Assembly: GCA_024137785.1 (NCBI GenBank) | Contig: JAHRHZ010000023.1 | Coordinates: 3,630,507-3,694,506, forward strand | Direction: 5' to 3' | From: Ginglymostoma cirratum | Taxonomy: Eukaryota | DNA length: 64,000 nt | Shown here: positions 1 to 3,000 of the stretch, piece by piece | Layout: every line of letters begins with the position of its first letter | Numbering within the stretch: the first letter of the stretch is position 1 | Position numbers: made by a program

Positions 1-3000
1 GGTCTAGGCCCGAAACGTGAGCTTTCCTGCTCCTCTGATGCTGCTTGGCCTGCTGTGTTCATCCAGCTCTACACCTTGTTTATCAAAGAGAAACGTCACT
101 TCCTTTTATCGAATTTAAGACACTTATCCAAATGGTCGAGATATAAGCTGGATATTACATGCTCCCATGGGCTGTGTTTTGGGTGGGAGGGCTGTGTGAT
201 TTGAGGGAGTTTGACTAGGCCATTAAATTCCCCCTCAGCACTGAGGGTGGCCCCTTCTCCCGGGTAGGGGTGAATATTCCATATGGAGCTCATTTAGCAC
301 CTACGGCCCTCCCCCATCCATGTGCCGTGGCTGTCATTGAGCTTCCAACATTGAAATTCAGAAACCAGGAGCTGGAGTAGGCCATCCAGCCCTTCGAGCT
401 TACTCTGCCATTCAATATGACCGTGGCTGATTCGCCACCTCAACGTGATATTCCCATTTCCTCTCCATATCCCATAATGCCTTTAAAATCTTACATTGAA
501 TAAAGGGAGGAGATAAATCCAATGACTTGGCCTCCAGTGCCTCGTGTGGTGGTGTATTCCACAGGGTCGCTCCCCTCAGAATGAAGTAATGATTCCTCAT
601 CTTAGTCCAAACTGCTGTCGATATTTTCTAATGAAGTTGTTCAGGGATGTTGTGACACACCTCAGGAGCAGGTGGGAAGAAAACACATGCTTCCTGGTTC
701 AGAGGTGAGTGGACAACCACTGCACTACAACAGCCCCTCCTAAAGACCCTGCATCCTGAGACTGTGTGCCCTGGTGCTAGACCCCCAAACCAGGGGAAGC
801 ATCCTCCCTGCATCTAGTCTGCTTGGCCCTCTAGAAATTTTATACATTTCAAACAGATCTCCTCTAGTTATTCTAGACTCTAGCGGACACAGGTCCAGTC
901 CTCTCTTCCTCCTGATAAAACGAATCTCTCCTCACAAAGCAGTCCTACCATCATTGGCATCAGCCTAGCGAACCTCCTGCTGCACTCCCTCTACATCCCC
1001 GCTTAGGTAGGGAGACCAAAACTGTGTGTAATATTCCAGGTGTGGTCTCACCAAGGCCCTGTATCACTGTAGGAGGACGTTCCAACTTCTGAACAACAAT
1101 GCTCTTGCAATGAAGGCCAATATGCCATTTCCCACTGGCCAGGTGGTTAGCTGCCAACTTCTCTTCCAGTGCTTGGGGATGGGGGTGTTTCTCTTCAATT
1201 ACTCTGTTCAGTTAATCCCACACACCCCCATTCTTTCCCCTGTTTAAAAAAAAAGTCAATTTATAAACAGCATTGAGTAGATTTCAGAACATCATAAAAG
1301 TTGTGCGTAAATAAAAGCAAAATGCTGCAGACGCCAGAAATCTGAAACAGACGCTGAGCATGTTGGATAAACTCAACAACTCTGGCAGCATCTGGGGAGA
1401 GAGAAACCAAGATAATGATTTGAGTCTGATAAGGCTTCTTTGGAGTTTGGAAGAAAATTCATGTCAGACTCGAAACGTTGATTCTGCATTCTCTCCACAG
1501 ATGCTGCCAGACCTGCTGAGTTTCACCAGCACTTTCTGCGTTTACGAAGCCATGAATGGCCCTGTTTTGTTGTTAATGATGTTCTCGGATGTATTATTAG
1601 AGTGAAAGAGAACCAGAAAAGACATTCTTAGCTTCATTGCTTTGCTAAGAACAGCATTTTTGGGTTCTTGTGAAATGTGGAATCCCTTTACAACGTCTCC
1701 AACGCACAATGTACGTTTTGTTTAAATGCACTTTTCTCTCTCTCCTGCTTCGAAGGATTTGGCTGCTGCAGAACGTTCTCGCCGTCATGCTGAGCAGGAG
1801 AAGGAGGAGCTTGCTGAGGAGTTGGCAGGGAATGTCTCTGGAAAGTATGTAACAGGAAGATCCTCACTCTTTTTCTTCTTGCTAAAGTGATATTTTCTCA
1901 TGACCCTTTAACCTATCTGCCACCTTCAGGGATCTGTGGACAAGCATCCCAAGATCCTTCAGTTCCTCTGAGCTTCCAAGTGTTCATTGAGTACTCCCTT
2001 GACTTGTTACTACTTGCAAAGTGCATCACCTCACATTTATCAGGGCTCAATTCCATCCATCACTGATCTGCCAGTGGTGATTGTAACAATGTCAGCCAGG
2101 GTGGACTTCATAGAATATGAGCTCCCTGATTGAGCTGTTAATCTGGTCCACTCAGGGAGTCCTGGCTGACAGATAAGAACAGGAGTGTCAGAGGTTTTGC
2201 TCACTATGAGACCTGGCTCTGAGGGAGCTGGATCCATGTCAAGGACTCTCCACGTGTAAATAAAGGGTCTCTTAGTAATGGGATACCAGCCTCTGTGGAA
2301 CCAAAACAAAGTTGCTGAAAAAGCTCAGCAGGTCTGACACCATCTGTGAAGGAGAAAACAGAGTTAATGTTTCGGGTCCGGTGACCCTTCCTCAGAACCT
2401 CAGAACCCAGTTCTGAGGAAGGGTCACCCAACCCGAAACGTTAACTCTGTTTTCTCCTTCGCAGATGCTGTCAGACCTGCTGAGCTTTTCCAGCAACTTT
2501 GTTTTTGTTCCAGCTCTGGAGTTAGTTCAATACACATCTGACCAATCCCTCTACATCCGCCTGTAACCTAACATCTACCTCCTGACTGTCAACCACCCGG
2601 CCAATCTCTGTGTCATCTGCAAACTTACTTACTATCCTCCGATACATTTTTCTGATGCATCAAATCAAAAGTACTTTCTGGAGTGCAATTTCAGATGAGA
2701 AGAATGTCAATATCTGAACCAGAAAGTAAATGGCTTCCCCCGTGTCTCCTGAAATATAAAGATCAGTTGCACTGAGCAAGGGTGTAGAGCACACCGTGTG
2801 CTTTCTGTAGGTGCAGTTTGTGACCCTGTATGATCAGGGAAACACTAATCCAGCTGCATTGTTAAAACATTGCAGGTCTGCACTTCTGGATGAGAAACGG
2901 CGTCTGGAGACTAGAATATCACAGATGGAGGAAGAGCTGGAAGAGGAGCAGGGCAACATGGAAACACTGAATGATCGTCTCAGGAAAGTTGTACAGCAGG

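What the first reader, a model, noticed from the sequence alone, without database searches (positions are those of the whole stretch)
2298..2511. MITE-like palindromes built from two back-to-back ribozyme-bearing PLE tails
Seen: short insertions consist of the same PLE 3' tail on both strands. The inversion point repeatedly falls within or just 5' of the hammerhead (centres ~2400, ~3440, ~25885, ~30655). They resemble DNA-transposon MITEs, but carry 13-16 bp TSDs typical of target-primed retrotransposition: 4243-4257/4431-4445, 5876-5889/6221-6234, 31740-31753/31844-31857, 36941-36955/37112-37126, 57360-57374/57445-57459, 25781-25796/25992-26007. Inference: the ribozyme structure or a self-priming/template-switch step may set the inversion point, producing a class of non-autonomous hairpin retroelements. 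Transcribed copies would form ~100-bp dsRNA (possible ADAR or Dicer substrate) that also sequesters the ribozyme.
Basis: partly seen in the sequence, partly recalled or inferred. Interest (0 to 1): 0.68.

Follow-up and report, generated by a model that had tools for sequence, protein, structure and literature searches.

The report
Head-to-head Penelope retrotransposon tail insertions
The short palindromes are real, but they are the usual inverted, 5'-shortened insertion products of a shark Penelope-like retrotransposon, not a new kind of hairpin element.

Summary
The palindrome at 2296-2512 is real: 103-nt arms, 93% complementary, 11 nt apart. All six quoted target-site duplications check out, though two of them flank single units, not palindromes. 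Each arm is the last 100-130 nt of a Penelope-like element (PLE). In a longer copy the same tail follows the C-terminal end of an endonuclease ORF that is 89% identical to a whale-shark RT + GIY-YIG protein.

The arms carry the published minimal PLE hammerhead motif (PMC4209133). No Rfam hammerhead model matches, even at E<=10.

The architecture is already published as the PLE hallmark: an inverted 5'-truncated copy, a 30-40-bp "tail" at one end, and a duplication (PMC8557442, PMC3846280). A purified PLE protein cleaves and extends both target strands from two internal start sites (PMC11167929).

New detail here:
- 12 of 25 arms start 1-5 nt before the CTGANGA box, or 5 nt into it.
- None starts at the predicted ribozyme cut.
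- No two resolved junctions are alike.

So these are PLE insertion products made at integration. They are not MITEs, and nothing shows them to be a self-propagating hairpin class.

The parts
2296..2398 (-). Left arm of the palindrome in question (family A PLE 3' unit). It starts 3 nt before the CTGANGA box and ends at the short 3' end.
   Evidence: (I2)
2399..2409 (.). 11-nt centre. It contains a second copy of the last 8 nt of the left arm (a stutter).
2410..2512 (+). Right arm (family A unit). It starts 3-5 nt before the box and ends at the short 3' end.
2413..2442 (+). Minimal hammerhead-like core of the right arm: CTGAGGA, one extra A, a 5-bp helix II, GAAAC, then GTT. The predicted cut is after 2442. 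The mirror copy on the minus strand is 2395 down to 2366.
   Evidence: No Rfam match.
2286..2295 (.). Weak, decayed target-site duplication. Its partner is 2510-2518.
   Evidence: 9 of 10 with one gap; 11% of shuffles as good
3320..3480 (.). Head-to-head pair, family B. The left arm has the long tail. The right arm starts inside helix II and ends early, about 55 nt after the box. The 8-bp exact duplication is 3308-3315 / 3481-3488.
   Evidence: (I7)
4258..4430 (.). Head-to-head pair, family B. The short left arm starts at +57 and has the long tail. The full right arm starts at -2 to -5 and has the short end. The duplication is 15 bp.
   Evidence: (I9)
5890..6220 (.). Head-to-head pair, family A. 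Its inversion point is 28 nt or more upstream of the box, 101 nt or more on the other arm. The duplication is 14 bp.
15596..16190 (.). Family A inverted arms (15596-15695 minus, 16098-16190 plus) around a 400-N run. A 12-bp duplication spans the whole (15588-15599 / 16194-16205, 11 of 12). The centre was not read.
25797..25991 (.). Head-to-head pair, family B. The left arm has the short end and the right arm has the long tail. The duplication is 16 bp.
   Evidence: (I11, I12)
30507..30751 (.). Head-to-head pair, family A. The arms meet at -2 and +3 with no filler. The left end has the long tail, with an A-rich expansion. No duplication was found.
   Evidence: (I4)
36956..37111 (.). Head-to-head pair, family B. 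The full left arm has the short end. The right arm starts at +67 to +73 and has the long tail. The 15-bp duplication is perfect.
38931..39903 (.). Large head-to-head pair, family B. The minus-strand copy reaches 535 nt upstream of the box and includes the C-terminal end of the endonuclease ORF (39312-39449). The plus-strand copy reaches 223 nt upstream. The 13-bp duplication is perfect (38915-38927 / 39903-39915).
   Evidence: (I1)
31754..31843 (+). Single family B unit. It starts at the same boundary (-5), ends at the short end, and has a 14-bp duplication.
57375..57444 (+). Single family B fragment starting at +67, with the long tail and a perfect 15-bp duplication.
58477..58509 (+). Example of the 33-nt optional tail extension that separates the long 3' end from the short one.
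   Evidence: PMC11167929
8860..9290 (+). Decayed GIY-YIG endonuclease region of a family A PLE. It is joined head-to-head at about 8850 to a minus-strand 3' unit (8647-8846). It is interrupted at 9080-9180 by an antisense unit.

Best explanation
These are insertion products of endonuclease-bearing Penelope-like retrotransposons of a shark-like genome. Each arm is the 3'-terminal 100-130 nt of the element: the minimal hammerhead motif plus 66-99 nt.

INFERRED, by analogy with the anole PLE protein in vitro. The element's GIY-YIG nuclease opens both strands of the target 12-16 bp apart, which later shows as the duplication. Reverse transcription is primed from both 3' ends. Each cDNA starts at one of two internal start sites 33 nt apart, giving the short and long 3' ends.

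SHOWN. Each cDNA very often ends at one discrete 5' boundary just before the CTGANGA box.

INFERRED. The two antisense cDNAs are then joined 5' end to 5' end, sometimes with a few stuttered or extra bases. This gives a head-to-head palindrome that is unique to each locus.

MY OWN INFERENCE, held at about 40%. [quoted passage not shown] On that view the 100-130-nt unit is a run-off copy of the RNA leader made from the 5'-proximal copy of the internal start site.

Ribozyme self-cleavage plays no visible part in setting the boundary.
For: PLE IDENTITY. In the copy at 39591 down to 38931, the same tail and motif lie about 290 nt after the end of an ORF. The last 45 aa of that ORF are 89% identical, at 100% coverage and E 1.3e-14, to the C-terminus of Rhincodon typus LOC125484857. 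That protein has GIY-YIG (23.2 bits, cut-off 22.6) and a sub-threshold RVT_1 (22.7 bits, cut-off 29.6). A zebra-shark relative reads on into the same motif.

MOTIF. The order is CTGANGA, one extra base, a G-C-closed helix II, GAAAC, then ACGT-type bases. This is as described for minimal PLE hammerheads. Helix II is paired in 92.9% of cells across 19 copies.

TAIL. Units end at about +94 to +98 or at about +119 to +125 from the box. Counted from the start of helix II, the long end lies about 117 nt away, against 111-118 in the anole element. Of the 10 pairs with canonical ends on both sides, 8 have one long and one short end, 2 are short/short and none is long/long (my reading). This matches the published 'tail at one end only'.

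BOTH STRANDS. [quoted passage not shown]

DUPLICATIONS. 10 of 17 insertion units have a flanking direct repeat of 8-16 bp that at most 0.7% of shuffles match.

5' BOUNDARY. 12 of 25 family A/B arms start between -5 and +5 of the box. The binomial p is 2e-7 even if starts are confined to a 130-nt span.

UNIQUE JUNCTIONS. The arm-end pairs are -3/-5 with 11 nt of filler, -2/+3 with none, -5/+57 with a 3-nt filler, -2/+20, -2/+67 to +73, about 0/+17, -28/-101 or beyond, and -223/-535.
Against: - No full-length PLE, no PLE RT domain and no head-to-tail partial tandem lies in the window. Element identity therefore rests on the endonuclease C-terminus and on homologues elsewhere.
- No Rfam hammerhead model matches.
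- Covariation within the window does not exceed shuffled controls.
- 4 of 17 units show no duplication, and 3 show only a weak one, including the palindrome in question.
- Priming on both strands is taken from an anole element in vitro. It is not shown for this element.
- The 8-of-10 asymmetry of tails is not significant on its own (one-sided binomial about 0.055 at p = 0.5, my arithmetic).
- The RNA-5'-end idea has no RNA evidence.
- A search for PLE proteins beginning with the peptide encoded by the tail found only 5 short unnamed gene models.
- Only about 30 arms from one 64-kb window were examined.
Confidence: 0.8

Rival explanations
1. Self-priming (snap-back) or a template switch by the reverse transcriptase. 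One cDNA reaches the end of its template, folds back and copies itself, so both arms come from one synthesis. This is the reader's idea, and Arkhipova and colleagues proposed it for PLE inverted repeats in 2013.
For: PMC3846280 (passages) infers self-priming from palindromes at inverted junctions. In the 2298-2511 pair both arms stop within 2 nt of each other, both have the short 3' end, and the centre repeats the last 8 nt of one arm. The 30507-30751 pair is also nearly symmetric. A similar stutter sits at the junction at 4329-4335.
Against: In 4 of 5 unequal pairs (4258-4430, 25797-25991, 36956-37111, 17626-17745), the shorter arm carries the 33-nt tail that the longer arm lacks. A copy of the first cDNA could not contain that tail. 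8 of 10 pairs differ in 3' end type. Complementarity of the 2298-2511 arms stops within 2 nt of the unit ends, and the flanks are direct repeats, not inverted ones.
Confidence: 0.15
2. The palindromes, or some of them, are non-autonomous hairpin retroelements. They would be transcribed and copied again as whole units by PLE proteins.
For: In the older family C, four arms at three loci (1340-1545, 17626-17745, 19281-19372) share one start, about 18 nt after where the box would begin. Two of those loci have a similar layout: a short inverted tail piece ending at +76 or +78, joined to an arm starting at +18. In vitro, a PLE RNA truncated to 20 nt past the start of helix II is still inserted, so such truncated units could remain mobile.
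Against: None of the 9 resolved family A/B pairs shares a junction with another. The two family C loci differ in filler and in 3' end type. Single units with the same 5' boundary exist, so no hairpin is needed for mobility. Three loci are too few to show propagation.
Confidence: 0.08
3. True MITEs moved by a DNA transposase, or palindromes made after insertion by rearrangement or assembly error.
For: They have terminal inverted repeats and a small size. Two 400-N runs sit inside such structures, and such structures are said to trouble assemblies (PMC8557442).
Against: Duplication length varies from 8 to 16 bp. The 'inverted repeats' are the oriented 3' end of a retroelement with two alternative ends. 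0 of 136 ORFs of 75 aa or more has a transposase domain. Clean duplications flank whole pairs, which an assembly error or a later rearrangement would not produce.
Confidence: 0.03

Closest known systems
Canonical endonuclease-bearing Penelope-like element insertions with inverted pseudo-LTRs (Penelope/Poseidon/Neptune; Arkhipova 2013 PMC3846280; Craig 2021 PMC8557442)
   Same: An inverted 5'-truncated copy joined head-to-head. An optional 30-40-bp tail at one end only (33 nt here). A hammerhead motif near the 3' end. A flanking duplication, heavy 5' truncation, and palindromes at the inverted junction.
   Different: Here most pairs have no ORF between the arms, only two 50-130-nt 3' units. Duplications are 12-16 bp, against 8-10 bp quoted for rotifer copies. 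No direct pseudo-LTR tandem is seen in this window.
Anole Poseidon element PAc in vitro (Frangieh 2024, PMC11167929)
   Same: There are two reverse-transcription start sites 30-40 nt apart, internal to the RNA. The long start site lies about 111-118 nt after the start of helix II (about 117 nt here). Both target strands are extended. Ribozyme cleavage is not needed, and RNA truncated near the ribozyme is still used.
   Different: That work is biochemical and used one reptile element. Here there are only genomic footprints in a cartilaginous-fish-like genome. The target preference for ATT was not examined here.
Minimal hammerhead motifs of metazoan PLEs (Cervera and de la Pena 2014, PMC4209133)
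   Same: CTGANGA, one unpaired base before helix II, a long helix II closed by G-C, GAAAC, and palindromic bases in place of helix III. Copies are mostly single or in opposite strands close together.
   Different: Activity was not tested. Several copies here have core changes. The Rfam models do not detect them. The opposite-strand pairs here are 20-45 nt apart, not 100-700 nt.
L1 twin priming
   Same: It works alike: a second priming on the other target strand gives an inversion inside one insertion, flanked by one duplication.
   Different: In L1 both halves come from one RNA and form an inversion with a deletion or duplication, not a palindrome of two 3' ends. L1 also uses a different nuclease and primes on poly(A).
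MITEs
   Same: Small, non-coding, with terminal inverted repeats and a hairpin-forming transcript.
   Different: There is no transposase, the duplication is variable and long, and the arms are oriented retroelement ends. They are not members.
Animal non-LTR retrozymes (PMC7229834, listing only; bioRxiv 10.64898/2026.07.22.740005, abstract and passages)
   Same: Short non-autonomous hammerhead-bearing sequences derived from PLE terminal repeats.
   Different: Retrozymes are head-to-tail tandem repeats. No tandem array of the unit exists in this window.

Membership tests
Penelope-like element (endonuclease-bearing) | [quoted passage not shown] | tested here: inconclusive
   Only endonuclease fragments are in the window (8860-9290 +; 39263-39601 -), and Pfam does not detect them. 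A 45-aa piece is 89% identical to the C-terminus of a whale-shark protein with GIY-YIG above cut-off and RVT_1 below it. The only RT ORF in the window (10562-11746) looks CR1/L2-like from its C-terminal motifs (my reading) and is not adjacent to these tails.
Penelope-like element (endonuclease-bearing) | Hammerhead motif in the terminal repeat | tested here: inconclusive
   Descriptor features are met in 11 arms, and helix II is paired in 92.9% of cells. There is no Rfam hammerhead match, covariation does not exceed shuffles, and cleavage is not testable here.
Penelope-like element (endonuclease-bearing) | [quoted passage not shown] | tested here: met
   There are two 3' ends 33 nt apart in families A and B. 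Of 10 pairs, 8 have one long and one short end.
Penelope-like element (endonuclease-bearing) | Adjacent inverted 5'-truncated copy | tested here: met
   12 inverted pairs within 400 nt. 9 resolved family A/B head-to-head pairs, plus family C and family D pairs.
Penelope-like element (endonuclease-bearing) | Direct pseudo-LTRs from partial head-to-tail tandems | tested here: not met
   No head-to-tail arrangement of units in the window. No full-length copy is present, so this says little about the family.
Penelope-like element (endonuclease-bearing) | Target-site duplication | tested here: met
   10 of 17 units have 8-16-bp direct repeats that at most 0.7% of shuffles match.
MITE (DNA transposon derivative) | Fixed short duplication and a cognate transposase with matching terminal repeats | tested here: not met
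   Duplications vary from 8 to 16 bp. 0 of 136 ORFs of 75 aa or more has a transposase domain. The arms are PLE 3' ends.
Non-LTR retrozyme | Head-to-tail tandem repeats of a hammerhead-bearing unit | tested here: not met
   TRF finds no array of the unit with a period up to 500.

The most novel reading that the evidence does not exclude
The sharp 5' boundary at the edge of the hammerhead marks the 5' end of the PLE template RNA. The 100-130-nt units and their palindromes would then be complete run-off copies of the RNA leader, made when the internal start site nearest the RNA's 5' end is used on both target strands. This would be a genomic record, in a cartilaginous fish, of the two-strand, internal-initiation mechanism so far seen only in vitro with a reptile element. 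The ribozyme-less family C would be a truncated leader that went on amplifying as a non-autonomous lineage.
Probability: 0.3. Interest if true: 0.5.

Novelty: new member of a known kind. Interest (0 to 1): 0.3.

Why it matters
How PLEs integrate is still poorly understood. These small two-armed insertions are compact natural records of single integration events. Each one shows which start site was used on each strand, where each cDNA stopped and how the two were joined. A genome-wide count in a PLE-rich shark genome could test the in vitro model of two-strand priming and internal initiation. [quoted passage not shown] In practice, such palindromes should be annotated as PLE fragments and not as MITEs or microRNA-like hairpins. 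Rfam microRNA models give spurious sub-threshold hits on them. The palindromes may also explain local assembly gaps.

Tried and rejected
- RFAM. Three scans found no hammerhead family: gathering on the whole window, E<=10 on 2200-2620 and E<=10 on the whole window. They gave only sub-threshold microRNA-type matches caused by the hairpins.
- PFAM ON THE ENDONUCLEASE FRAGMENTS. Nothing relevant in 5 pieces at E<=10.
- TAIL AS ORF START. I tested whether the tail is the start of the PLE ORF, as in the anole element. A 42-aa translation of 58383-58508 found 5 short unnamed gene models and no PLE protein. This is inconclusive.
- QUASI-PALINDROME AT THE 5' END. I tested whether the unit's first 14 nt could pair two cDNAs. 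In 9 natural copies, shuffles paired as well in 29-80% of trials. Rejected.
- COVARIATION SUPPORT FOR HELICES I AND II. It does not exceed shuffled controls.
- SINGLE ARMS AS STABLE RNA FOLDS. z-scores were -0.34, +1.07 and +1.02, so no.
- tRNA GENES AND TANDEM ARRAYS. None of either that is relevant.
- LITERATURE. Searches for shark PLE palindromes (7 papers) and for PLE plus twin priming (3 papers) showed nothing on this point in their listings.
- NOT DONE. Supplementary files of PMC4209133 and PMC11167929 (hammerhead alignments; ends of genomic copies and RNA reads) could bear on the 5' boundary and were not seen.
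Full report
1. WHAT IS THERE

The stretch 2296-2512 is a near-perfect palindrome. Its arms, 2296-2398 and 2410-2512, are 103 nt long, 93% complementary and 11 nt apart. As RNA it folds into a single hairpin of -176.7 kcal/mol, with z = -28 against 200 shuffles. A single arm has no unusual fold: z = -0.34, +1.07 and +1.02 for three arms.

All six quoted flanking direct repeats exist, at 14-16 bp with 0-2 mismatches. 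Two of the six flank single units (31754-31843 and 57375-57444), not palindromes. The palindrome in question has only a decayed duplication: 2286-2295 against 2510-2518, 9 of 10 with a gap, and 11% of shuffles do as well.

2. WHAT THE ARMS ARE

Self-comparison of the window sorts the arms into two main families (A and B here), an older family C and a separate family D.

The clearest evidence for origin is the family B copy at 39591 down to 38931 on the minus strand. There the arm sequence is preceded by about 290 nt of pyrimidine-rich untranslated sequence, and before that by the end of an ORF. The last 45 aa of that ORF are 89% identical, at full coverage and E 1.3e-14, to the C-terminus of a whale-shark protein. 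That protein has a GIY-YIG domain above the Pfam cut-off and a sub-threshold RT domain. A zebra-shark relative reads through into the same motif.

A decayed endonuclease region of a family A element lies at 8860-9290. Pfam does not detect the window's own fragments. The only RT ORF in the window, 10562-11746, looks CR1/L2-like from its C-terminal motifs (my reading) and is unrelated to the tails. The genome is shark-like, and I do not take it for human.

3. THE RIBOZYME

No Rfam hammerhead model matches, either at the gathering score or at E<=10. The hits that do appear are sub-threshold microRNA models responding to the hairpins.

By pattern, CTGANGA...GAAA occurs 31 times in the window, and 11 of these are in PLE arms. 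In those arms the order is as follows:
- CTGANGA;
- one extra base;
- a 4-5-bp helix II closed by G-C;
- GAAAC;
- an ACGT-type palindrome in place of helix III;
- in family A, a 4-bp helix I.

These are the features Cervera and de la Pena list for minimal PLE hammerheads, which they expect to act as dimers and found barely active in vitro (PMC4209133; I read parts 1-2 of 4).

Across 19 copies, helix II is paired in 92.9% of cells and helix I in 68.4%. Covariation is no better than in shuffles. Family D (34005-34697) has the same boxes with a different helix II sequence. So 'ribozyme-bearing' is fair as a statement about a motif. Activity is untested, and several copies have core changes.

4. 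ANATOMY OF THE INSERTIONS

I used two natural copies as rulers, with position 0 at the C of CTGANGA.

3' ENDS. Units end either at about +94 to +98 (short) or at about +119 to +125 (long). The difference is a 33-nt extension, for example 58477-58509. Of the 10 head-to-head pairs with canonical ends on both sides, 8 have one long and one short end, 2 are short/short and none is long/long.

5' ENDS. 12 of 25 family A/B arms start between -5 and +5. The binomial p is 2e-7 even if starts are confined to a 130-nt span. For these counts I left out arms cut by the window edge or by a mask, cross-family matches, and family C.
- A more permissive alignment moves one further arm (25872) to -2.
- The same boundary is used by single units: 31754-31843 and 9080-9180.
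- No arm starts at the predicted ribozyme cut, about +28. The nearest is +32 by BLAST, or +20 by the permissive alignment, for the same arm.
- Other starts lie at +13 to +21, at +45 to +78, or far upstream (-16 or beyond, -28, -101 or beyond twice, -223, -535).

JUNCTIONS. At least one arm of 6 of 9 resolved family A/B pairs sits at the boundary, or 7 of 9. The junctions all differ in arm ends and filler.

DUPLICATIONS. These are significant in 10 of 17 units (8-16 bp), weak in 3 and absent in 4.

5. HOW IT COMPARES WITH WHAT IS KNOWN

Craig and colleagues describe PLE insertions as follows (PMC8557442, passages):
- heavily 5'-truncated;
- often with an inverted 5'-truncated copy adjacent;
- with a 30-40-bp tail often at one end only;
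- troublesome for assemblies.

Arkhipova and colleagues describe inverted pseudo-LTRs with a 31-bp tail on one of them and 8-10-bp duplications. They infer self-priming from palindromes at the inverted junction (PMC3846280, passages).

Frangieh and colleagues purified an anole PLE protein (PMC11167929, main text). They showed the following:
- it cleaves and extends both target strands;
- reverse transcription starts at two adjacent internal sites whose spacing is the tail;
- the start lies 111-118 nt into the ORF, which begins at helix II;
- ribozyme mutants insert normally;
- RNA truncated to 20 nt past the start codon is still used.

In the shark units the long end lies about 117 nt after the start of helix II, which is the same geometry. 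Cervera and de la Pena already noted paired minimal hammerheads on opposite strands 100-700 bp apart. The finding is therefore a clear instance of a published architecture, not a new class.

6. MECHANISM

SHOWN HERE. The arms are PLE 3' ends. There are two alternative 3' ends, a preferred 5' boundary, junctions unique to each locus, and long variable duplications.

INFERRED FROM THE IN VITRO WORK. Both strands of a staggered break prime reverse transcription, and the two cDNAs are joined head-to-head.

AGAINST A PURE FOLD-BACK. In 4 of 5 unequal pairs, the shorter arm carries the 33-nt tail that the longer arm lacks. The flanks are direct repeats, not inverted ones. For the symmetric pair at 2298-2511 a fold-back cannot be excluded, because its centre repeats 8 nt of one arm.

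WHY THE 5' BOUNDARY? It is not the ribozyme cut. [quoted passage not shown] The units would then be run-off copies of the RNA leader from the 5'-proximal copy of the internal start site. This fits three observations:
- the boundary is used by single units as well as paired ones;
- a variable run of 2-5 T sits before the box in family B starts;
- the sequence around the boundary resembles an initiator motif. That motif is recalled from memory and was not tested.

In Drosophila virilis Penelope the transcription start lies 46 bp before a 75-bp intron (PMC2377424, passages). That intron ends at the 5' edge of helix I, so the edge of the motif is a landmark there too. A block to the polymerase by bound protein is the alternative. 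An idea that the unit's first bases are self-complementary enough to pair two cDNAs failed its control.

7. PROPAGATING HAIRPINS?

Family C gives the only hint. Four arms at three loci start at about +18, inside helix II and without the CTGANGA box. Two of those loci have a similar layout. This may be a truncated, ribozyme-less lineage that kept amplifying, which the in vitro template requirements would allow. Three loci cannot show it.

8. LIMITS

- Everything rests on about 30 arms in one window.
- Two 400-N runs (15698-16097 and 57977-58376) lie between inverted PLE arms and were left unread.
- Supplementary files of the two key papers were not seen.
- Searches of the paper library showed no description of these shark mini-palindromes or of the 5' boundary. 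The library omits most subscription journals.

9. VERDICT

The thing is a new member of a known kind: inverted and single 3' units of a shark Penelope-like element. It has modest added value in the sharp 5' boundary, the absence of starts at the ribozyme cut, and the match to the in vitro geometry.

Noticed in passing
window 9080-9180: A 101-nt antisense family A unit sits exactly between two codons (G and L) of another PLE's endonuclease ORF. There is no duplication and no loss of ORF sequence, as judged against the whale-shark protein (p = 0.30). The 5' junction shares about 8 nt of microhomology with the target.
   Followed up: partly
window 15698-16097 and 57977-58376: Both 400-N runs lie between inverted PLE arms. 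The first is spanned by a 12-bp duplication (15588-15599 / 16194-16205, 11 of 12). The arms either side of the second (57777-57904 and 58379-58506) are 98.4% alike. The runs were not filled.
   Followed up: partly
window 1340-1545, 17626-17745, 19281-19372: An older family C of the same tail. Four arms start about 18 nt after where the CTGANGA box would begin, so they lack the catalytic box.
   Followed up: partly
window 34005-34214 and 34479-34697: A fourth PLE-like family in head-to-head arrangement. It has the same CTGATGA...GAAAC-GTC boxes but a different helix II sequence, and its inversion point is about 150 nt upstream of the box (I3, 12, 14, 57).
   Followed up: partly
window 8068-8370 (+): An exon-like ORF matching Pfam Myosin_tail_1 (E 9.8e-13). 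The window seems to lie in or beside a myosin heavy-chain gene.
   Followed up: no
window 10562-11746 (+): An open 394-aa ORF with an RVT_1 domain (E 3.5e-24). From its C-terminal motifs (my reading) it looks CR1/L2-like. A fragment of the same C-terminal region lies at 8560-8640.
   Followed up: partly
window 3747-4052, 5092-5376, 5605-5898, 7260-7611, 18878-19237, 51423-51724: A 300-bp interspersed repeat family in both orientations. A sub-threshold tRNA match lies at 5619-5706 (25.5 bits, cut-off 29). ARAGORN finds no tRNA. It is possibly a tRNA-derived SINE.
   Followed up: no
window 2348-2460, 3398-3479, 4289-4433, 25793-25964: The PLE palindromes draw sub-threshold matches to many Rfam microRNA precursor models (best 44.6 bits against a cut-off of 118). 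This is a likely source of false microRNA calls.
   Followed up: yes
window 31754-31763 and 57375-57386: At the 5' junction of two single units, 6-8 nt of the adjacent target duplication are repeated again. This looks like a microhomology or template-switch stutter.
   Followed up: no
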